Program-made: the position numbers and the translations under genes | NCBI GenBank assembly: GCA_963664405.1 | Contig: OY761158.1 | Location: 3,040,001-3,104,000 of the forward strand | Direction: 5' to 3' | DNA from: Thermoanaerobaculia bacterium | Lineage (GTDB): Bacteria > Acidobacteriota > Thermoanaerobaculia > Multivoradales > Multivoraceae | Length of the DNA: 64,000 nt | The notes under the pieces: model-generated | The model's input: the letters and a program-made list of their open reading frames with translations, nothing else | Databases searched by the model: none | What the model was told of the DNA's origin: nothing | Shown here: piece after piece, positions 18,599 through 26,545 of the stretch | Layout of the letters: every line of letters starts with the position of its first letter | Numbering within the stretch: position 1 is the stretch's first letter

Positions 18599-19615
18599 TG
18601 GAGCTACCCCGATTTGGTGGACACCGCTGAAAGTCCGAGAATGGACTTGGAGGTGTTCAGGAGATGGGTCAGTCACGGAGAAGATTCAGCGAGGAGTTCA
18701 AGCGCGAGGCGGTCCGCCTGGCTTACGGGACGGGGCGTTCGGTCGTCGAGGTGGCTCGGGAGTTGGATGTGCGTGCGGAGCAGATTCGTCGTTGGCGCAA
18801 GCATTTCGAGCACCGGGAGTCGTTGGGATCGGAGCCCGATCCCGCGGAGGAGGTCAAGCGCCTTCGTCGCGAGCTGGCTCGGGTGAAGCAGGAGCATGCG
18901 ATCCTAAAAAAAGCCTTGGCGATCTTCTCGGAGACGCAGCGATGCGTCTGAGTGTGGCGCAGCGTGTCGCGGTGTCGTTTCCGGTGGCGCAGGTATGTAG
19001 CGTCCTGGGAGTGTCCCGCAGCGGCTACTACGCACGTCTCGGGCGCGGTGAATCGGCCCGTGTGCGAGAAGATCGCCGACTCAAGCAGCAGATTCTGGCG
19101 GTGCATGTGGAGGCACGGCAGCGCTACGGGACGCCTCGTGTCGAGCGCGCGCTGCGCCGGTCGGGGACGCGGACGTCTCGCAAGCGCGTGGCGCGTTTGC
19201 GTCGTGAACTGGGATTGCGCACCCGCGACTCCCGCCGCTTCCGCGTGACGACCGATTCCGACCATCGCAAGCCAATCGCACCGAATCGCTTGCAGCGCAG
19301 CTTCACGTCCCGTGCTCGAGATCGCATCTGGGTCGGCGACATCACCTATCTGCGTGCCGGTGCGAGCTGGCTGTATCTCGCCGTGCTTCTGGACGTCTAT
19401 TCCCGCCGAGTGGTGGGATGGAGCCTCTCGAGCCGCATCGACGAGGGGCTTGTCCGCAAGGCCTTGGATCGAGCCCTAGCCGCTCGTCGGCCGGCCCGAG
19501 GCTGGATCCATCATACCGACCGAGGCGGCCAATACTGCGCGGACGACTACCGCGAGCGGGTCGACAAACTCGGAGGGGTCGCGAGCATGAGTCGCAAAGG
19601 CGATTGCTGGGACAA
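18599..19615 (+). mobile_element. IS3-family element, left part (IRL, orfA, orfB truncated at 'GDCWD')
   Basis: IRL TGGAGCTACCCCGATTTGGTGGACACC; A7G -1 frameshift motif at 18906-18913; orfB 'WVGDITY', 'HHTDRGGQY', 'SMSRKGDCWD'. Confidence 0.92.
18664..18951 (+). CDS. IS3 OrfA (HTH)
   Basis: 'RRRFSEEFKREAVRL...VARELDV...ILKKA'. Confidence 0.9.
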   Translation: MGQSRRRFSEEFKREAVRLAYGTGRSVVEVARELDVRAEQIRRWRKHFEHRESLGSEPDPAEEVKRLRRELARVKQEHAILKKALAIFSETQRCV

Positions 19616-19618
19616 GGG

Positions 19619-21712
19619 CTACGCTTCACACTGCACCTCCTCCGTAGGGTTCGGTTCGACGTCGAGGCGGCGCCGTCGTTGCGAGAGTTTTCGGCCCTGC
19701 ATTTTGACGGGCGGGTCGTCGCCGAGATGCTCGTAGAGGCACTCGTTCTTGTCGTTGTAGGCATGGGCACGCAGCAGGCCGTGGTTGCGCCATGTCTTCA
19801 CCGTGTGGGTCGCGACACCCAGTAGGTCAGCCATCTCTTCGAGGGTAAGCATTCCCCCCTCACGCAGTCGGTCGTACCTCTTCTTGATGTCGTAGTCACG
19901 GCGCAGTCGCCGGACGATGCCGGCGTGAAATCGTTTGCCCTCTCCGGAGAGATGGCCTCTGTCGTTGAGGATGCTCGCAATCTCGGCCTCGGTGTAGTCA
20001 TCAAGCAGGGTATCAATCTCGGCAACGACCTGTTTCGATGTTTGGCGTAACTCCCATGCTGTCGGCGGAATGGGCAGTTTGAGACTTCGTGTCGCGCCAC
20101 CTCGGAAGCGGACACCGACAACGATCTCGTCGCCCTTCGTCAAGGTGACGTCCTCGATGAGCAAGCGCACCATGCGCTTGCGCTCGCGTTGAGGCGTCTT
20201 CGGGTCGTTCCACAACCGCGGGAAGTCGGTGGCGAGGGCGAGGATCTCTTCTCGTTGCTGGTCGCCGAGCTGTTGGTGATCTTGCTGGCGGCGCTGCTCG
20301 AGCTCCTCCTGTGCGTCGTGCAGCCCGCGCAGCCTCTCGTTCCACTCGGCCTCGAGGACATCCACCACGAGGCGGTTCCCCGGATCGACCTCCATGAAGC
20401 GACGCCGAGCCAAGTCAGCCTCCTGTCGAGCTCGCTGTACGTGCTGGCGCCGCAGGGAATCGGCCTCGTGGATCCGTGCATCGAGCTCGACCTGGACTTT
20501 CAGTGCAACCTCCAGAGTCACAGGCGTAACCGTCTCCACAAGCAGCTCTCCGATGGCCCGATCGATGCCCTTGCCCGGGATCGACTGACACTTGGGTGTC
20601 GCGGTGTCGATGCCCTCGCGCTGGCAGACGTACTCGGGCCACTGAGTGCCCCTGCGCGTGTGATAGCGGACCGTCATCCGATGGCCACAAACGCCGCAGA
20701 GGACCAAGCCCTGCACCAGCGCTGGCCCCTCGCGCGGTGGGCTCTTGCGCCGGTCTCGGCCGTGGGCCTGGGCGTTGTCTCGTAGTCGTCTCAGGTTTTC
20801 TTCGAATTGTTCCCAGGGAATGTAACCGGGGTGCGCGTCGAGCAACAGCGCGGTCCACTCCTCACGCGGAAGCGACTTGACCTCGATGGTGCCGTTGACG
20901 CGCTTTTGCGTGTGAGTGCGACCGAAACAGAAAGCGCCAGCGTAGCGGGGATTGTGCAGCACCCTCAGGACGCGCCAGTGGCGCAACGACTCCCACAACA
21001 GCTCTCCCTTGTGGGGGCCGAAGCGCGGCCGGCGCGGAAACCGCAAGCCTTGCTCGCGGAAGTGTTTGACCGTCGCCGAGGCCGAGCCCATACGCTCGAA
21101 GGTCTCGAACAGGTGCTCGAAGCTCCGTTGGACCTGGCCGTCGGGATCTAACACCACGTTGCCGGTCGGGTCGTAGAGTAGGCCGACGGGTAACGGGGTT
21201 TGCAGCGCACCTCGGCGCGCCTGATTCAGAATGCCTCCGCGCAGCCGAGCCCGCATCACGTGAAGCTCCGCCTCGCTCATCGTGCCCTTGAGCCCGAGCA
21301 GAAGGCGATCGTTGAAATCACTCGGGCTGTAGACCCCGTCCTCGTCAAGGATCAGCGTGTCGGTCAGCGCGCAGATCTCCAGCAGTCGATGCCAGTCCGT
21401 GCTATTGCGTGCCAGGCGCGAAACCTCCAGCCCGAGAACGATCCCGGCTCGGCCCATACCGACCTCGCCGACGAGCTTCTGAAAGCCCTCGCGGTCGACG
21501 CTGGAAGCTGCGGACTTACCCAGGTCGGAGTCGATCACGATGACTCGCTCGATGGGCCATCCCATCGCCACCGCGCGCTCTCGCAACGCGTACTGGCGTC
21601 TCGTGCTCTCCGTATTCTCGAACACCTGGCGCACGGTCGACTGGCGAACATACAGGTACGCATCGCGTCGCAGGTGGCTTGGGGTCACTTTCTGGTGGGC
21701 GCTTGCGCTCAT
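19619..21712 (-). CDS. Large serine recombinase (resolvase, recombinase, Zn-ribbon, coiled coil, C-terminal HTH)
   Basis: 'YLYVRQST' catalytic Ser, 'EVSRLARN', 'LHNPRYAG', 'GLVLCGVCG...YVC...C'. Confidence 0.93.
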   Translation of the reverse strand: MSASAHQKVTPSHLRRDAYLYVRQSTVRQVFENTESTRRQYALRERAVAMGWPIERVIVIDSDLGKSAASSVDREGFQKLVGEVGMGRAGIVLGLEVSRLARNSTDWHRLLEICALTDTLILDEDGVYSPSDFNDRLLLGLKGTMSEAELHVMRARLRGGILNQARRGALQTPLPVGLLYDPTGNVVLDPDGQVQRSFEHLFETFERMGSASATVKHFREQGLRFPRRPRFGPHKGELLWESLRHWRVLRVLHNPRYAGAFCFGRTHTQKRVNGTIEVKSLPREEWTALLLDAHPGYIPWEQFEENLRRLRDNAQAHGRDRRKSPPREGPALVQGLVLCGVCGHRMTVRYHTRRGTQWPEYVCQREGIDTATPKCQSIPGKGIDRAIGELLVETVTPVTLEVALKVQVELDARIHEADSLRRQHVQRARQEADLARRRFMEVDPGNRLVVDVLEAEWNERLRGLHDAQEELEQRRQQDHQQLGDQQREEILALATDFPRLWNDPKTPQRERKRMVRLLIEDVTLTKGDEIVVGVRFRGGATRSLKLPIPPTAWELRQTSKQVVAEIDTLLDDYTEAEIASILNDRGHLSGEGKRFHAGIVRRLRRDYDIKKRYDRLREGGMLTLEEMADLLGVATHTVKTWRNHGLLRAHAYNDKNECLYEHLGDDPPVKMQGRKLSQRRRRLDVEPNPTEEVQCEA

Positions 21713-21996
21713 GCGTGGTTCTCCTGTAGATGGCTGAGAGCCATGGCGGCCAGCACGTTGATCAGATCCGCGCTCGTATCGTGAGGCAGTGCGGACGGCC
21801 TGGCTATCTCGGCGGACGGTGCCGGGGTCGGCGCGGGCATCTTGGACCCCTGTTCAACCCAAGCGGCCAGCCCTTGTCGCAGGAGAACGGCCAAGCCGAA
21901 CCGAACCGATAGGAGCTGCCGCTTCGCCGCATGTCCTCGGAGCTCCTCGTAGCGAGCGACATGGGCCGGAGCGTTCTGCTGGCGTGTCGCGCTCAT
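21709..21996 (-). CDS. Small accessory protein of the recombinase element
   Basis: ATGA overlaps with both neighbours; 'YEELR...GLAVLLRQGLAAW'. Confidence 0.7.
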   Translation of the reverse strand: MSATRQQNAPAHVARYEELRGHAAKRQLLSVRFGLAVLLRQGLAAWVEQGSKMPAPTPAPSAEIARPSALPHDTSADLINVLAAMALSHLQENHA

Positions 21997-22460
21997 GGCC
22001 GGCGTTTTTTTTCCTGGCGAGCCAGGGCTCGCTCAATGCTGCGCGGATGGATCGAGATGCCAAAGCGCTTCTGCACCCACTCGGCCAGGGCGGTTGCATC
22101 TGCGTCCGGCTCCCCCTCCAGCCTGTCGTGCAGGGCCTCGACGACCTCCTCGGATAGCTTGTGGGCGCGGCGCGGCCCCGGCTTTCTTGGCAGCAACGCG
22201 GGTAGGCCGCCTTCTTCGTAAACCACCTGGGCGTGGTAGAAGGATGGGCGCGACAACCCGAAGCTTGCCGCGCTCCGGCTCACCGTGTGTCTGTCCACCC
22301 GGACACGGCGCAGCATCTCGTACTTGACCTGCACGAGGTCTCGAGGGTCGAAGAACTCGCTCGAGGTGAACAAATCGTCCGAGACCTTCTCCGGCTGGGG
22401 ATGAAGGCACCCTCGTTGACGGAGGGCCTCGGCTTTCGGGTCGGGTCTGCGTCGCGGCAT
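21993..22460 (-). CDS. Helix-turn-helix protein of the recombinase element
   Basis: GAGGAG RBS; 'FFDPRDLVQVKYEMLRRV...SAASFGLSRPSFY...GLPALLPRKPGPRRAHKL'. Confidence 0.85.
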   Translation of the reverse strand: MPRRRPDPKAEALRQRGCLHPQPEKVSDDLFTSSEFFDPRDLVQVKYEMLRRVRVDRHTVSRSAASFGLSRPSFYHAQVVYEEGGLPALLPRKPGPRRAHKLSEEVVEALHDRLEGEPDADATALAEWVQKRFGISIHPRSIERALARQEKKRRP

Positions 22461-22488
22461 GATCGTCTCCTCATGGAATGTAATTCTA

Positions 22489-22516
22489 ATTATGCCTCTC
22501 ATGGATCCTCTGTCAA
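22489..22516 (-). promoter_or_regulatory. Sigma70-like promoter for the HTH-orf-recombinase operon
   Basis: TTGACA-N16-CATAAT on the minus strand, overlapped by one arm of a 21-bp imperfect inverted repeat. Confidence 0.6.
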
Positions 22517-22675
22517 GGGGTGTCCACCAAGAGAGTACCGATAGATCGTGCATTAAATTGGCCTATCTCTACACTCCTGGTCACACTCCGGCACTCTTCC
22601 CGACATAATTGTGATTACATTCACGGCATAATCTCCTTTACGCACGGTGCCCCTCAACCGTCCTCACGCAGGTCT

Positions 22676-22968
22676 TCATCGCTCGCTCTCCCGGGTCAGC
22701 TTGGCGAGCTCGAGCAGGTCGGCCACGCGGTACATCGATCTGCCTGCGGAGATGACAACCACGGGGTCCTCGGCCACCGCACTCGTCCAACGCGCTGGAA
22801 GGGAGCGTAGCTCCTCGCATTCATCCAGGTAGAAGACCCGGTCCTCGCCCCAGCACTGGCGATAGTGAGCCAGCTCGTACTCACGCCCCAACAGCGGGTG
22901 GAACGGATGGGTTACCCGAAAACGTCGTTGCTCACAATCTGTATCGGGTGCATTCGACCATTGAGCCC
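22676..22968 (-). CDS. DUF5372 / Y4bD-like small protein with no start codon upstream of its conserved core inside the element
   Basis: 'FRVTHPFHPLLGREY...WGEDRVFY...SLPARWT'; the frame is open to the element end with no ATG/GTG/TTG before the conserved core. Confidence 0.75.
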
Positions 22969-23731
22969 AAAGGCCGCGTCGAGCGCGCAATCCGCTTCCT
23001 GCGAAGCTCGTTCTTCGGCGCCCGAACGGTGAGCGATTTGGATCGTCTGAATCGGCAGGTCCTGGAATGGTGCCAGAGGTCGCAGCGCAGACCCTGGCCG
23101 CAGGACCGACAGCGAACCGTGAAAAGCGCCCTGGCCCAGGAACGGCCTCGACTGCTTGAGCTTCCCGGAGACGACGTCGAAACCGATCTGCGAGTGGAGA
23201 TCAAGGTCAGAAAGACGCCGATCGTGCGTTTCGACCTCAACGACTACTCGGTGCCGCACAGTCATGTGCAGAGGACCGTCACGCTCCTCGCCAGCGAGCA
23301 TCGGGTGCGGATCCTCGATGGCCAGGAGCTCCTCGCCGAGCACCCTCGCTCGTACTCCCGGGGCGAGCAGATCCTCGATCCTCAACATCTCGAGGAGCTC
23401 CTCGCTCACAAACGCAGGGCCCGACGACACCGGGGCTTCCATCGGCTGTTTTCCGCTGTGCCTCGATGCGAAGAGCTGATGCAGCAGCTCGCCGAGCGAG
23501 GCGAGAACCTCGGAACGCAGAATCCTCGAGGTTGTGCGGTCTCACGGAGAGATCTCGCTGTTGGAGCTCCTGGCTGAGCGGCACCGGTAAAGCCGGAGGC
23601 TGACCGAGGCCGCGCGGGTGCCGTTCGAGTAGGAGCCGGCGGACTGGAATCGCGGTGCGTGGTTCAGGAGCGCTTCGCGCACGGCTTTGTCGAGTCGCTG
23701 GGGGCCGTACTGGCGCAGGAGTCGGACTAGT
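22969..23731 (+). pseudogene. istA: IS21 IstA C-terminal half; the last ~210 bp are inverted
   Basis: 'KGRVERAIRFLRSSFF...VRFDLNDYSVP...AEHPRSY...GENLG' on plus; continuation 'LVRLLRQYG...EALLNHAP...VRPHNLED' on minus at 23731-23522. Confidence 0.85.
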
Positions 23732-24318
23732 ACTGGGCGTCGTGACCATACGCTGCTTCTTACCCTGTTCAACACCGGCGCTCGCGTGCAGGAGCTCCTC
23801 GACCTACGGCCCGTCGATCTACAGCTGGATCGTCCCTTCCAGGTCCGGCTGCGCGGCAAGGGGCGCAAGGAGCGTCTTTGACTAGTGCTTGAGTCGATCG
23901 CATCGAACAGGGCGCGAAGCTCGCTGGCATCGAGATACTCGACGACCGGGATCGGGGCGCGCTTGAAAGGTACAGCGAGCAGGAGCTGGCAGGTTTCGAG
24001 ATGTTCGGGATGCCTGCCGGCAACAAAACGCGCGAAGGCATGAAGTGCAGCCAAGCGGGCGTTGCGCGTGGCGACACCGTTTGCTCGCTCCTGCTCCAGG
24101 TGATCGAGGAAAGCAATCACGGCGTCGGGCTCGAAGTCCGACAGATCGAGATCGATAACGGATCGGCCCCGGTCTGCTGCGAGGAAGCGAAGGAAGAGCG
24201 CCAAGGCGTCTCGGTAGCTCCTGACTGTGTGCGGACTTGCACCTTGTACTTGCGGAAGGTGCTCGCTGAAGAAACTACGAAGGGCTCGTGCGAGATCGTT
24301 CGGTGGGGCGGCTCTCAT
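23732..24318 (-). pseudogene. RIT recombinase C, truncated, with an internal inversion
   Basis: 'SPHTVRSYRDAL...TRNARLAALHAF...DSSTS' on minus; next residues 'TGRRDHTLLLTLFNTGARVQE...GKGRKER' lie on plus at 23732-23880. Confidence 0.85.
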
Positions 24319-25304
24319 CGTGCACATTCCTCAGGAGCGTCGATGACGATCGACTGAGCGTGGCGAGCGAAGAGCTCGTCGGCTTTTTGAGCGAATGGCT
24401 CGAAGAGGGCAAGGTAGTGCTGTGTGGAGACGATAGAGACGTGGCCCATGTAGATCGCGAGGGCGGGCAGTTTGGCCTGCACGTCGACGCCCTCTCGGTA
24501 CCAGCGAAGGAGCGCTTGGTGGGCGAAACTGTGGCGCAGGTCGTGCACACGAGGGAGATCGCCTGTGGAGGTCTTGATCCTTGCGCTACGGAAAAGCTCC
24601 CGGAGTCCCTGGGCAAGACCGGCACCGGTATACGGACGCAGTCCCCGGCTGCAGTTACACAAAAGAGGCTGGTCGCCAGAAGATAGCAGCCTCCGGCGCA
24701 CCTGGAGGTAGTCTTCGATCTCGCGTGCGGCGTCACCCGACAGCGGCACGAGTCGCGACTTATGAAACTTGGTGGCGTCGATTCGAAGCGTGCGCTCAGC
24801 TGCGTCGTAGTCGGCGATAGTGAGCCGGGTGAGCTCGCCACGGCGTAGGCCGGTCGTGTAGAGCAGAACGACCGCTAGGCGAAAGACCTCACGATGTAAC
24901 GGCGAATGAGCGTGTGGCAGCAGGGCGTCGGTCACTCGTAAAAGGCGGGCGATTTCCTCCTGAGTGAAGAGATGAGGGCGTCTAGGCTGATGAGGATCTG
25001 GAAAGCCGCTGCGATCCGGCACAAAGCAGACGGGCTCATTGCGCTGCCGATAGAGGCAGAGATTGCGAACGATTCGCATCCGGTTGCGCCGCACGCCTGG
25101 CGAGAGGTGGGCCATCGTCGTGCACCACTGGGCGAACGTGTCGGCGCTGAGCTCCACTCCGTGACCCAGCGAAACGAGAAAATGGTCGAGATGCAGAAGC
25201 ACGTCGCGCTCCACTGCGTACTGCCGTCCGAGGCTCTGTTTCACGCGGACATAGCGGGCCATCGTGGGACCGAGGAGCGAGCAAAAGGAGGTGTGCCCCC
25301 TCAT
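24315..25304 (-). CDS. RIT recombinase B (tyrosine recombinase)
   Basis: 'LYTTGLRRGE', 'TKFHKSRLVP', 'HDLRHSFA', 'YMGHVSIVSTQHYL'. Confidence 0.92.
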   Translation of the reverse strand: MRGHTSFCSLLGPTMARYVRVKQSLGRQYAVERDVLLHLDHFLVSLGHGVELSADTFAQWCTTMAHLSPGVRRNRMRIVRNLCLYRQRNEPVCFVPDRSGFPDPHQPRRPHLFTQEEIARLLRVTDALLPHAHSPLHREVFRLAVVLLYTTGLRRGELTRLTIADYDAAERTLRIDATKFHKSRLVPLSGDAAREIEDYLQVRRRLLSSGDQPLLCNCSRGLRPYTGAGLAQGLRELFRSARIKTSTGDLPRVHDLRHSFAHQALLRWYREGVDVQAKLPALAIYMGHVSIVSTQHYLALFEPFAQKADELFARHAQSIVIDAPEECAR

Positions 25305-26545
25305 CGCCGGGCCTCTTCGTGTGCAATCCCAGGCAAGTCGAGGGGACATCCCTCAGGTCCTCGACGTGGAGCCGGAGATAGACCGCTGGTACTTTCAACG
25401 CTCCGATGGCCGAGAAGGCCACCGATACTCTTGAGTGCCGCACCTTTCCGGAGCAGATGAATGGCCAGAGAGTGGCGCAGGCAATGAGGGCCTTGGAACG
25501 GAATCGGGAGGCCAGCACGGCGGACCCACCCCTGGAAGGCCTCTGTGACAGCCGTCGGTTTGAGCGTCCCCGCGGGAGCCCGGACGCGGAGGAAGACCTC
25601 TCGCAGCGGCAGAGCTGGACGACCGCCTCGAAGGTAAGAGAGGATCGCGGCGCCCACCTCCGGGGTCAATGGCACCTCCAGGGGGGAACGCACCTTGGGC
25701 CGCGGCACCCGCACCCTACCGTCGCGCCACGCGATGTCGTCGAGGGTGACCGAGACGACTTCGCAGGTGCGCAGGCCGTAGGTGACAATGAGCAGGAACA
25801 TGGCGTAGTCGCGCCGTCCCATCGCCGTCGAGCGATCGATGGCCCGGACGAAGGTGCGAACGGTCTCCCAGGACAGCGCGCGAGGGAGTCGCTCGCCACG
25901 ATAAACGCGAGGTGTATCGATGGCCGAATCGAGACCGGCCGCAGCGAGGCCACGCGCAGCTAGAAAGCGGAGGAACGAGCGCACGTGGGAGACGGTGTGC
26001 TGGAGACTCTCGCGGCTGAGCCGCTGCGCCTTGAGCTCAAGGAAGCCCTCAATCACTCCTCCGTCCAGAGATCGCAGGCAGTCATCGAGCTGCTCGTCTC
26101 CGCTGTCTCGTAGGTAGGCGAGCAACTCGCGCACGGTCGCGGCGTAGTGATTCAGCGTGCTGCGCGATAGCCCTCGCACTTTCTCGAGGTGAGAGCGGTA
26201 CGAGGCGCTTAATTCGAGAGCCGGGGTCGGACGCTGAGGTGCCAGCGCTCCTTGCGCCCCGAAATAGCGCACCAGCGAAAGGACAAGAGCGGAGCGGTAG
26301 ATGTCGTCCTGTGAAGACGCCGGAGCGTACACCAGGAGCTCTTGCGCCGAAAGCTCTTCGATCTTGCTGACTCCATCGCGCCGAAACTGAGCGTCAAGTC
26401 CCTTGGCGGCACGGACGCGCAGGCGAATGGGAAGGCGAGGATAGCCCTGAGACCTGAGCCAAACAATCAACCCCTCGAGATACGGTCCCAACACGGGCAG
26501 GCACCGGTAGCGAGCATGGGCTCGCGGAAACATCTCGGCAAGCAT
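25301..26545 (-). pseudogene. RIT recombinase A, probably frameshifted just before the catalytic Tyr
   Basis: 'TYGLRTCEV', 'HCLRHSLA', 'LGHRSVEST'; the expected 'VYLRLHVEDLRDV' is in another frame. Confidence 0.75.

What the first reader, a model, noticed from the sequence alone, without database searches (positions are those of the whole stretch)
19614..22970. A gene assembled only in the excised circle: the DUF5372-like ORF is split across attP
Seen: the DUF5372-like frame has no start upstream of its conserved core inside the element. Joining the two ends through one TT core (minus strand) gives GGAGGAGG-TGCAGT-GTG AAG CGT AGC CCT TGG GCT CAA TGG TCG AAT..., i.e. MKRSPWAQWSNAPD...FRVTHPFHP in frame. 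The strong RBS and GTG overlap the recombinase's last codons. Inference: a recombination-state switch. The protein would be made only after excision, coupled to the recombinase, and could act as a directionality, targeting or circle-maintenance factor.
Basis: partly seen in the sequence, partly recalled or inferred. Interest (0 to 1): 0.92.

Follow-up and report, generated by a model that had tools for sequence, protein, structure and literature searches.

The report
Gene completed only when element circularises
A small mobile element that jumps into other transposons' enzyme genes keeps the ribosome-binding site and start codon of one of its own genes at the opposite end, so the gene is whole only when the ends are joined, probably telling its recombinase which state the DNA is in.

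Summary
Window 19614-22970 is a 3.36-kb element present in 5 copies in this genome. All genes are on the minus strand: a start-less DUF5372 ORF, a promoter, an HTH gene, a 95-codon ORF and a large serine recombinase. The crossover dinucleotide is TT.

The recombinase end carries GGAGG, then GTG, then 11 nt, then TT. Joining the ends puts that GTG in frame with DUF5372.

- In 33 of 34 related loci from many phyla, the junction ORF is in frame.
- The leader has no stop in 0 of 70 loci, against 14 and 51 of 70 in the other two frames.
- 32 of 70 integrated copies have no canonical start at all.
- The recombinase stop shifts from -72 to +8 nt relative to the invariant ATG/GTG.

Two metagenome contigs carry the joined form with full 102- and 103-aa ORFs. 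A complex model places DUF5372 at the base of the recombinase's coiled coil, where RDFs bind (ipSAE 0.70, best control 0.01).

The sign of the effect on directionality is inferred. Closest precedents are archaeal suicidal integrases and circle-junction promoters. I rate it a new variant of a known kind.

The parts
19614..19615 (-). Crossover dinucleotide (TT on minus strand, AA on plus) at the recombinase end of the element
   Evidence: Boundary shared by 5 genomic copies with different flanks. An empty IS21 site shows a single AA.
19616..19643 (-). Left arm of attP. Holds the SD-like GGAGGAGG (19643-19636), the half-site motif GGTGCAGT (19637-19630), the start codon GTG (19629-19627) and four further codons AAG CGT AGC CC(T)
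   Evidence: Sequence. In relatives, ATG 29 and GTG 9 of 38 at this fixed position 14 nt from the core; the mirror position in the right arm reads TGA or CGA.
19619..21712 (-). Large serine recombinase, 697 aa, with a C-terminal HTH (MerR_1 at its cut-off, HTH_17 below its cut-off)
   Evidence: Pfam Resolvase, Recombinase and Zn_ribbon_recom; PHROG integrase phrog_95, E 3e-49
21709..21996 (-). 95-codon ORF with no family, overlapping both neighbours by 4 nt
   Evidence: no Pfam, PHROG or NCBIfam match; a tblastn relative at the same place in 46 of 80 loci
21993..22460 (-). HTH protein (about 155 aa from the ATG at 22460, preceded by GAGGAG). It resembles the N-terminal DNA-binding part of IS630 and IS481 transposases
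   Evidence: Pfam HTH_32, HTH_29, HTH_28; NCBIfam hits below cut-off; conserved in 74 of 80 loci
22489..22516 (-). Sigma-70-type promoter TTGACA-16-CATAAT that would drive HTH, ORF95 and the recombinase, and DUF5372 in the joined form
   Evidence: 11 of 12 consensus matches. The same hexamers occur in junction contig L147. A strict regex matches 21 of 79 loci against 0 of 68 control stretches.
22676..22969 (-). DUF5372 ORF without a start of its own (in-element part, 97 codons plus stop)
   Evidence: PF17342, E 2.3e-20. No in-frame ATG, GTG or TTG before the core. Folded at pLDDT 81 as a small beta-barrel plus a C-terminal helix.
22947..22954 (-). Right-arm half-site motif AATGCACC, the mirror image of GGTGCAGT at the same distance from the core. 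It is translated as part of the leader (S-N-A-P)
   Evidence: Consensus of 71 right arms against 38 left arms
22969..22970 (-). Crossover dinucleotide TT at the DUF5372 end
18792..19613 (+). Left flank: IS3-family OrfB (rve) cut after ...KGDCWD, four codons before the catalytic Glu
   Evidence: Pfam rve and HTH_21; flank sequence
22971..23577 (+). Right flank: C-terminal part of an IS21 IstA, beginning (K)GRVERAIRF
   Evidence: Pfam Mu-transpos_C_2; 22 further copies of this flank in the genome

Best explanation
The region is one copy of a compact insertion-sequence-like element moved by a large serine recombinase (LSR). The element inserts by a TT/AA crossover into genes of other mobile elements, most often four codons before the catalytic Glu of DDE (rve) transposases.

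Its attP site lies inside the first codons of its own DUF5372 gene. The Shine-Dalgarno sequence, the start codon and four codons sit at the recombinase end. The rest of the gene sits at the other end, upstream of the element's only recognisable promoter.

In the integrated state DUF5372 therefore has no promoter, no RBS and no start of its own. When the ends are joined by excision, one transcription unit forms: promoter, HTH, ORF95, recombinase, attP/DUF5372, terminator. DUF5372 is then translated just downstream of the recombinase.

DUF5372 is a small beta-barrel with a C-terminal helix. It is predicted to clamp the base of the recombinase's coiled coil and its zinc-ribbon domain, the place where recombination directionality factors act. 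I therefore read it as a cofactor gated by the state of the DNA.

My favoured sign is inference only. Being present only in the circle, it would bias the enzyme toward integration, or block the reverse reaction. Integration then destroys the gene and resets the switch.

Shown: the anatomy, the ends, the targets, conservation of the split, and the existence of the joined form in assemblies. Modelled: binding to the recombinase. Inferred: circle-only expression and the direction of the effect.
For: Ends and copies: 5 copies with identical boundaries and different flanks; empty site in 7 IS21 loci.

Conserved split:
- 78 of 80 related loci (the record titles name many phyla) have the right-arm motif. 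The distance from core to conserved Val/Ile codon is 55 nt in 66 loci, 61 in 6, 64 in 2, 67 in 2, 52 in 1 and 56 in 1. Of the 71 whose predicted core reads TT, 70 are in frame with a start 14 nt before the other core.
- The leader has a stop in 0 of 70 loci in the DUF5372 frame, against 14 and 51 of 70 in the other two frames.
- At the left arm, ATG occurs 29 times and GTG 9 times of 38, with no in-frame stop before the core in any of the 38. The mirror position of the right arm reads TGA or CGA, so the start is not part of the palindrome.
- The recombinase stop lies -72 to +8 nt from the start (+8 in 12 loci, +1 in 9, -11 in 7, and others). The start is therefore not a by-product of recombinase coding.
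- The joined ORF is in frame and 101-120 aa long in 33 of 34 loci.
- 32 of 70 integrated copies have no canonical start anywhere in the open frame. Flank starts exist in only 20 of 70, at scattered positions.
- The N-termini called by gene finders in 119 database homologues are scattered.

Joined form exists: contigs L146 and L147 read recombinase C-terminus, then GAGGTGCAGT-ATG, 11 nt, TT, then a complete DUF5372 ORF of 102 and 103 aa. L147 continues with a terminator-like hairpin, TTGACA-16-CATAAT and the HTH start. No joined form occurs in 5 assembled genomes that hold the element, so it is not a common tandem arrangement.

Binding: ipSAE 0.70 in three runs, best of 3 controls 0.01. That mark was reached by 58 of 80 solved complexes and 2 of 110 mismatched pairs. 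The runs agree in at least 85% of contacts, and the partner pLDDT is 70-71. The interface covers recombinase residues 338-343, 394-413, 482-518 and 533-541, and DUF5372 residues 21-26 and 68-95. The SPbeta RDF binds DBD2 and the inter-hinge segment of the coiled coil through an essential C-terminal helix (PMC11722253, passages read).
Against: - There are no RNA, ribosome or peptide data.
- The junction search used a pattern that presupposes the predicted geometry, so it cannot reveal other junctions. Only 2 of 6 metagenome hits and 0 of 8 viral hits were real.
- The two contigs could come from tandem copies rather than free circles.
- 38 of 70 integrated copies do have some in-frame ATG, GTG or TTG.
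- In 33 of 119 database homologues, gene callers start at a Leu 15 codons before the core; in 22 of 119 they start at a flank ATG two codons before the core-spanning Trp. Some copies might therefore be translatable while integrated, if transcribed.
- This window's own copy has a flank TTG at 22990.
- The left arm is also constrained as a recombinase binding site, and in part as recombinase coding sequence.
- One locus (L082) has a 56-nt leader and is out of frame.
- The complex is a model made with my own unpaired alignments.
- A classical RDF made only in the circle would be paradoxical, so the direction of the effect is a guess.
- Foldseek gives no informative structural relative (best E 5.6e-3).
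Confidence: 0.7

Rival explanations
1. DUF5372 is an ordinary gene translated from integrated copies, from a non-canonical, internal or flank-supplied start. The start codon and GAGG at the recombinase end are kept only because they belong to the recombinase binding site and to the recombinase's C-terminal codons.
For: 38 of 70 integrated copies have some in-frame canonical start. Gene callers find starts in thousands of database homologues, with recurrent classes at 15 codons (33 of 119) and 20 codons (22 of 119) before the core. GGTGCAGT is clearly a palindromic half-site motif.
Against: No start position is conserved; the best internal one occurs in 11 of 70. 32 of 70 have none at all, yet none of the 70 has a stop in the leader. 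Positions -14 to -12 are ATG or GTG in 38 of 38 left arms but TGA or CGA in the mirror arm. The recombinase stop moves across a range of 80 nt while the start stays fixed. Leader length changes are multiples of 3 (52, 55 and 61 nt) in 70 of 71 loci. The integrated gene lies upstream of the element's promoter and antisense to the target gene.
Confidence: 0.12
2. The split is real, but the gene is completed in another joined form rather than a free excised circle: head-to-tail tandem copies, or an attP-bearing replicon.
For: Contigs L146 and L147 show only that the two ends are adjacent in some DNA. Contigs cannot tell a circle from a tandem.
Against: No joined ends in 5 assembled genomes that together hold more than 20 copies. 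None of the 142 loci held at that point has the junction pattern. Serine recombinases excise as circles (established knowledge).
Confidence: 0.08
3. The split is real and DUF5372 is a classical recombination directionality factor that stimulates attL x attR and blocks attP x attB. A circle, once formed or newly arrived, would then mobilise resident copies in trans and delay its own reintegration.
For: The predicted interface is the one used by known RDFs (PMC11722253). Archaeal suicidal integrases show that integrated copies can depend on a factor supplied in trans by an intact incoming element (PMC8371274, passages).
Against: The first excision would have no RDF, and a non-replicating circle that blocks its own integration should be lost. 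The nearly identical multi-copy families (5 copies here; 11 matches in G279) argue for efficient reintegration.
Confidence: 0.2

Closest known systems
Archaeal 'suicidal' (SSV-type) tyrosine integrases
   Same: attP lies inside a gene of the element. The gene is whole only in the circular form and integration splits it. The split has been interpreted as built-in directionality control (PMC8371274, passages read).
   Different: There the split gene is the tyrosine integrase itself, cut into two large halves, and the review states such enzymes are found exclusively in archaea. Here the host is bacterial and the enzyme is a serine recombinase that stays intact. The split gene is a small accessory protein, and only its RBS, start and four codons are on the far side.
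Integration-dependent immunity of mycobacteriophage BPs and relatives
   Same: attP lies within a regulatory gene, so the integrated and free forms encode different products (PMC4557955, abstract read).
   Different: There the 3' end is exchanged: a degradation tag is removed, and the integrated form is the active one. It is a phage repressor with a tyrosine integrase. Here the 5' end is removed, with loss of translation initiation, and the joined form is the one that is expressed.
Circle-junction promoters (Tn4451/Tn4453 TnpX, ICEclc Pcirc, ICEKp1 P3'end)
   Same: Expression of a recombination gene is switched on by joining the ends. Tn4451 is also moved by a large serine recombinase (PMC13023037: discussion passage read, and the title of Lyras & Rood 2000 seen in its reference list; the 2000 paper itself was not read).
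   Different: Those assemble or reposition a promoter. Here no promoter is seen at the junction (scan of the natural junction contig L147). What is supplied is the RBS and start codon, so the coding sequence itself spans attP, and the gene switched on is a cofactor, not the recombinase.
Recombination directionality factors of large serine integrases (SPbeta SprB, phiC31 gp3)
   Same: A small protein predicted to bind the zinc-ribbon domain and the base of the coiled coil through a C-terminal helix (compared with PMC11722253).
   Different: There is no sequence or informative fold similarity. Known RDFs are ordinary genes expressed in the integrated state. The activity of DUF5372 is untested.
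Multi-targeting / transposon-like LSRs (TndX, TnpX, DUF4368 clade)
   Same: An LSR that moves a small element among many sites with a TT core (10.1101/2021.11.05.467528, passages read).
   Different: No DUF4368 match appears in the Pfam results for this recombinase. The targets are not AT-rich relaxed sites but a conserved coding motif of other mobile elements' enzymes.

Membership tests
Large serine recombinase element | N-terminal resolvase catalytic domain, recombinase domain and zinc-ribbon domain | tested here: met
   Pfam Resolvase 2.5e-17, Recombinase 4e-11, Zn_ribbon_recom 2.2e-7, all above their cut-offs
Large serine recombinase element | Recombination at a 2-bp non-palindromic core flanked by imperfect inverted half-sites | tested here: met
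   A TT core is shared by both ends and by the empty site. The consensus of 38 left and 71 right arms is GGTGCAGT-N14-TT-N14-AMTGCACC.
Large serine recombinase element | Excision as a circle carrying attP | tested here: inconclusive
   Two metagenome contigs carry the joined ends, but circular topology is not shown.
DUF5372 (PF17342) | Match to the Pfam model above the gathering score | tested here: met
   72.8 bits against a cut-off of 25; model positions 1-73 of 78
Recombination directionality factor | Binds its cognate integrase at the zinc-ribbon domain and coiled-coil base | tested here: inconclusive
   The model supports binding there (ipSAE 0.70, best control 0.01). This is a model only.
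Recombination directionality factor | Switches the integrase from attP x attB to attL x attR | not testable with these tools
   Needs a recombination assay
Element gene split by its own attP (suicidal-integrase logic) | attP lies inside an element ORF, so that integration separates its parts | tested here: met
   The core lies between codons 5 and 6 of the joined ORF here and in 33 of 34 relatives
Element gene split by its own attP (suicidal-integrase logic) | The split gene is the tyrosine integrase of an archaeal element | tested here: not met
   The recombinase is a serine enzyme and stays intact. The records titled are bacterial.
Circle-junction promoter elements (Tn4451, IS911 type) | A -35 and -10, or a whole promoter, brought together with the gene by end joining | tested here: not met
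   The scan of the natural junction contig L147 finds only the internal TTGACA-16-CATAAT about 490 nt downstream of the junction

The most novel reading that the evidence does not exclude
A widespread and so far undescribed family of bacterial elements encodes its recombination directionality in DNA topology. Excision physically assembles the gene for a recombinase-binding cofactor, and integration dismantles it, so the enzyme 'knows' whether it sits on a circle or in a chromosome. The same elements are hyperparasites that home to the catalytic-residue codons of other mobile elements' transposases and recombinases and so inactivate them. This would be the first serine-recombinase and first bacterial counterpart of the archaeal suicidal-integrase principle, and it would give a natural, self-resetting one-way switch for LSR-based genome engineering.
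Probability: 0.5. Interest if true: 0.9.

Novelty: new variant of a known kind. Interest (0 to 1): 0.82.

Why it matters
- How large serine recombinases of transposon-like elements choose between excision and integration without a phage-style regulatory circuit is an open question. A cofactor whose gene exists only in the joined form gives a concrete, testable answer.
- It assigns a first functional hypothesis to DUF5372. A full-text search for that name found no paper, and more than 3,000 database homologues scored E <= 1e-10.
- It explains why gene callers give these proteins inconsistent N-termini.
- The element family also targets the catalytic codons of DDE, IS91 and tyrosine-recombinase genes. 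That makes it a parasite of transposons that may limit their activity in genomes.
- An LSR with a small protein that sets its direction, plus a compact attP of about 46 bp, would interest genome engineers.

Tried and rejected
My first comparison suggested that three families (G279A, G279B, G353) were out of frame and had internal ATGs. That was my own printing error: one base was duplicated at the slice boundary. The translations corrected it, and notebook entry 2 is wrong on this point.

A search for the joined form found nothing in three places:
- the loci already held: 0 of 142;
- viral contigs: 8 pattern hits, none with DUF5372 or the recombinase;
- 5 assembled genomes: 0 of 5.

Four of the viral hits (L149, L151, L152, L154) share a GGTGCAGT-N14-TT-N14-AACTGCACC palindrome. 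No related recombinase lies in the fetched stretch. My pattern forced the RTG, so they say nothing about the start codon.

Other searches that gave nothing useful:
- Fold search of the DUF5372 model gave only weak barrel matches: ribosomal eS4 and NdhS-like, best E 5.6e-3.
- PHROGs and NCBIfam gave nothing for DUF5372 or ORF95.
- The protein atlas returned only DUF5372 clusters.
- The PDB sequence search found only catalytic-domain fragments for the recombinase.

None of the 119 database homologues whose core I could locate (of the best 120) has the junction-type N-terminal length of 23 residues. Joined-form ORFs are therefore rare among the top hits. The other roughly 3,150 hits were not examined.

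Literature: 'DUF5372' is in 0 papers. Searches combining serine recombinase, transposase-gene targets, hyperparasite and circular-only ORFs listed nothing that describes this element, judged from titles and the starts of abstracts only. Supplementary files were not consulted.

I rejected programmed frameshifting once the frame error was found. I also rejected translational fusion to the target gene: the element is antisense to DDE targets, and it is out of frame with the IS91 targets.

Full report
**1. What is in the window**

All genes of the element lie on the minus strand, in this order:
- an ORF matching Pfam DUF5372 (22969 to 22676; E 2.3e-20, model position 1 = Val at 22915-22913);
- a 120-nt spacer with a near-consensus promoter, TTGACA-16-CATAAT (22516-22489, 11 of 12);
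- an HTH protein (22460 to 21993; HTH_32, HTH_29, HTH_28);
- a 95-codon ORF with no family (21996 to 21709);
- a 697-aa large serine recombinase (21712 to 19619; Resolvase, Recombinase, Zn_ribbon_recom, and a C-terminal HTH at or below cut-off).

The recombinase ends ...GAG GAG GTG CAG TGT GAA GCG TAG.

**2. The ends are real**

The own genome holds 5 copies at 99-100% identity. All stop at the same bases: query 112-114 to 3474 of a 3601-base query, which is window about 19614-22973. The flanks differ:
- one copy sits cleanly in an IS21 istA (..ARGNE|KGRVERAIRF);
- two sit in IS481-like genes (..RT|NGKAERF);
- one sits in another rve gene (..PWQ|NPYAERVIGS);
- the window copy has an IS3 OrfB on the left (..KGDCWD|N) and IS21 on the right.

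The window copy is thus a chimera, best explained by recombination between two copies.

Seven uninterrupted IS21 loci read ...aatgagAAaggccgcg. The crossover dinucleotide is therefore AA on the plus strand (TT on the gene strand) and is present once in the empty site, as expected for a serine recombinase.

In the IS3 flank the second Asp and the Glu are 36 positions apart, i.e. DD(35)E by my own count on the translation; the motif name is recalled. The insertion falls four codons before the catalytic Glu.

**3. The DUF5372 frame inside the element has no start**

From the core to the conserved VTHPFHP there are 18 codons (W A Q W S N A P D T D C E Q R R F R) without ATG, GTG or TTG. The next TTG lies after the conserved motif. 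The ORF listing reports a 104-aa ORF only because a TTG happens to lie in the IS21 flank at 22990. The copies in other targets have other flank sequence there.

**4. Is the split conserved?**

PF17342 occurs in 16 of 401 genomes sampled from the phylum, 14 above cut-off, and in several copies in some. Copy comparison in G279 (two families), G353, G332 and G258 gave ends of the same design:
- CAGGAGGTGCAGT-ATG-AAGCGTAAGCC-TT
- CACGAGGTGCAGT-ATG-AGTTCAAGCCC-TT
- AAGGAGGTGTAGT-GTG-AAGATAGTTGG-TT
- AGGAAGGCGCGTAGT-ATG-AAGCCTGAAAC-TT

I first misread three of these as out of frame because a script printed one base twice. The translations show that all five families are in frame.

A scan of one genome per species found 599 pattern matches and 406 relatives. 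The best 80 were kept; their record titles name Planctomycetota, Acidobacteriota, Actinomycetota, Chloroflexia, Gemmatimonadota, Spirochaetia, several proteobacterial classes and others. Gene order is conserved: by tblastn, HTH in 74, ORF95 in 46 and the recombinase in 65 of the 80, many contigs being short.

Counts on these 80 loci:

(a) Right arm and leader length. 78 of 80 have the right-arm motif. The distance from predicted core to the Val/Ile codon is 55 nt in 66 loci, 61 in 6, 64 in 2, 67 in 2, 52 in 1 and 56 in 1. In 71 loci the predicted core reads TT, and 70 of these are congruent to 1 mod 3. The exception is L082.

(b) Stops. The leader contains a stop in 0 of 70 loci in the DUF5372 frame, against 14 of 70 and 51 of 70 in the other two frames.

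(c) Internal starts. 46 of 70 have no in-element ATG, GTG or TTG, and none has ATG. The commonest position is a GTG two codons before the core, in 11 of 70.

(d) Flank starts. The flank offers an in-frame canonical start before the first stop in only 20 of 70, at scattered positions. 32 of 70 integrated copies have no canonical start at all.

(e) Left arm. At the other end, 40 loci have the motif GGTGCAGT followed by xTG: ATG 29, GTG 11, and TT 11 nt later in 38.
- In those 38, positions -14 to -12 are ATG (29) or GTG (9).
- No in-frame stop precedes the core in any of the 38.
- GAGG precedes the start by 6 nt.
- The mirror position of the right arm reads TGA (44) or CGA (18) of 71.

The palindrome is GGTGCAGT-N14-TT-N14-AMTGCACC, and the start codon lies just inside it on one side only.

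(f) Recombinase stop. It lies from 72 nt before to 8 nt after the first base of the start codon: +8 in 12 loci, +1 in 9, -11 in 7, and others. The start codon is therefore kept whether it lies inside, overlaps or follows the recombinase ORF.

(g) Joined ORF. Joining the ends in silico gives an in-frame ORF of 101-120 aa in 33 of 34 loci with both ends defined.

These loci are related to one another, so the counts are not independent trials. Still, the leader-length classes 52, 55 and 61 nt all preserve the frame, and the moving recombinase stop shows several independent rearrangements around a fixed start.

**5. The joined form exists in sequenced DNA**

A pattern for the junction was scanned over metagenome contigs: GGTGCARTRTG, 11 N, TT, 11 N, TCRAMTRCA. 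Of 6 hits, 4 are unrelated and 2 are real.
- L146 (1068 bp) and L147 (2689 bp) read recombinase C-terminus (...EVQYEA in both; stop TGA directly after it in L147), then GAGGTGCAGT-ATG, 11 nt, TT, then a complete DUF5372 ORF of 102 and 103 aa starting at that ATG.
- L147 holds nearly the whole recombinase (residues 8-697 aligned).
- After the DUF5372 stop, L147 carries a terminator-like hairpin, the same TTGACA-16-CATAAT promoter and the start of the HTH gene. No promoter lies at the junction.

The pattern presupposes the geometry, so this shows that the predicted junction occurs, not that it is the only one.

The pattern is absent from the 5 assembled genomes that hold the element, from the loci held and from real elements in viral contigs. 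The joined form is thus not a common chromosomal tandem.

**6. How gene finders see it**

3271 database proteins match at E <= 1e-10; 8000 candidates were scored and the best 120 were listed. I read those 120. In 119 the core could be located, and the length before the core is scattered: 15 residues in 33, 20 in 22, 24 in 8, 28 in 7, 16 in 6, and many singletons up to 98. None has the junction-type 23.

The two commonest classes have simple causes:
- a Leu codon in the translated att arm (LSNAP) that happens to be TTG in one subfamily; in the loci I read the codon is CTT, CTG or TTG, and it is TGG in this window;
- an ATG created on the antisense strand when the target reads AAY-xCA-T.. (M-x-W).

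This is evidence that some integrated copies could be translated if transcribed. It is also evidence that no integrated-state start is conserved.

**7. What DUF5372 may do**

The model (67-row alignment, pLDDT 81) is a five-stranded barrel followed by two helices. The leader is poorly ordered: mean pLDDT 48 for residues 1-10 and 76 for residues 11-20. Foldseek finds only generic small barrels (best E 5.6e-3).

A complex model of the whole recombinase (38-row alignment) with DUF5372 scored as follows:
- ipSAE 0.70, 0.70 and 0.71 in three runs;
- best of 3 controls 0.01;
- the mark was reached by 58 of 80 solved complexes and 2 of 110 mismatched pairs;
- the runs agree in at least 85% of contacts;
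- partner pLDDT 70-71.

The tool notes that its calibration counts hold only roughly with my own alignments.

The contacts are the THPFHP motif and the C-terminal helix of DUF5372 (residues 21-26 and 68-95), against recombinase residues 338-343 (zinc ribbon), 394-413 and 482-518 (the outgoing and returning helices at the base of the coiled coil) and 533-541.

[quoted passage not shown] DUF5372 is therefore predicted to sit where directionality is set. This is a model, not a measurement.

**8. Mechanism proposed**

In the joined form the element is one operon: promoter, HTH, ORF95, recombinase, attP/DUF5372, terminator. Integration cuts it between codons 5 and 6 of DUF5372 and leaves the body of the gene upstream of the promoter, antisense to the target gene.

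The recombinase is expressed in both states. DUF5372 is expressed only, or mainly, when the ends are joined.

A factor present only on the circle cannot be needed for the first excision. It would harm the element if it blocked integration. The consistent reading is therefore that it favours attP x attB or suppresses the reverse reaction, perhaps by competing with an excision factor (ORF95 or HTH) at the coiled-coil base. Integration then resets the system. This last step is inference; I give it about even odds against the alternatives listed as rivals.

**9. Targets**

In 67 of 80 loci, a TT 36-75 nt before the core is flanked on the opposite strand by [K/N]xxxE. Among 61 such flanks, the residues from the insertion codon on are N/K, G/A, x, V/A/I, E, R/S. 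At the DNA level the site is only weakly conserved.

Other members sit elsewhere:
- in IS91-type transposases (Y2_Tnp; L105 also has Zn_Tnp_IS91; L083 also matches Y2_Tnp);
- in a tyrosine recombinase (L118);
- in a possible HNH endonuclease (L067; E 3e-4, 0.1 bit below cut-off);
- one base displaced in an IS21-type gene (L091).

The family thus preys on the enzymes of other mobile elements.

**10. Comparison with what is known**

The principle that a gene is whole only in the circular form is known from archaeal suicidal integrases. The review I read calls these exclusive to archaea and likens the split to a built-in RDF (PMC8371274).

An attP inside a regulatory gene is known from integration-dependent immunity (PMC4557955, abstract).

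End-joining that switches on a recombination gene is known as junction promoters, including for the serine transposon Tn4451 (PMC13023037, passage and reference title).

What is different here:
- the enzyme class (serine) and the domain (bacteria);
- the split gene is a predicted recombinase-binding cofactor;
- what is separated is the translation-initiation region, so that attP is translated as the leader of the protein.

A full-text search for 'DUF5372' found no paper, and my other searches listed nothing on this element. Supplements were closed and were not consulted.

**11. Verdict**

Expression and activity remain to be shown.

Noticed in passing
window 18792-19613 and 22971-23577: The window's copy has unlike flanks: IS3 OrfB on the left and IS21 IstA on the right. 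The other four copies sit cleanly in one gene. This suggests a deletion or inversion by recombination between two copies. No reciprocal copy is among the five.
   Followed up: partly
window 23542-26545 (minus strand): Three adjacent ORFs (261, 344 and 414 aa) that look to me like tyrosine recombinases, one apparently degraded. They resemble a 'recombinase in trio' element (the name is recalled) just beyond the IS21 fragment. No domain search was run on them.
   Followed up: no
L055:6693-10227: In genome G258 the serine recombinase gene of the related element is interrupted after about 144 codons by three consecutive ORFs that look to me like tyrosine recombinases, i.e. one mobile element nested in another. 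No domain search was run on them.
   Followed up: no
L063-L142 flanks; L105:4578-5945, L083:1-957, L118:5173-5580, L067:5798-5947: The element family inserts in genes of other mobile elements. Most insertions fall four codons before the catalytic Glu of DDE/rve transposases. Others lie in IS91 (Y2_Tnp) transposases, a phage-integrase-family gene and a possible HNH endonuclease.
   Followed up: partly
L051-L053 (G279, second family), 3' end: The recombinase frame has no stop inside the element (..GAG GTG CAG TAT GAG TTC AAG CCC TT). Its C-terminus therefore depends on the flank or on the joined form.
   Followed up: no
L149:1085-1128, L151:5510-5553, L152:2743-2786, L154:3692-3735: Four viral contigs share GGTGCAGT-ATG-N11-TT-N14-AACTGCACC, the same palindrome geometry as this element's attP. 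There is no DUF5372 and no related recombinase in the fetched stretch. It may be the attP of a distant serine integrase, or chance.
   Followed up: partly
window 21993-22460: The element's HTH protein resembles the N-terminal DNA-binding region of IS630 and IS481 transposases (NCBIfam E 6.5e-12 and 4.8e-8, far below cut-off). That is curious for an element that targets such transposase genes.
   Followed up: no
L082:5945-6000: The one locus whose leader is 56 nt, not 55, and so out of frame with the junction start. This is either a decayed copy or an indel error of the assembly.
   Followed up: no
L060, L061 (G230, G250): Distant DUF5372-like ORFs of 171 aa lie directly after an LL(K/R)KIYEVDPLxCPQC motif that looks to me like the C-terminal end of an IS91-type transposase (from recall; not tested). 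They may be a remote branch of the same kind of element.
   Followed up: no
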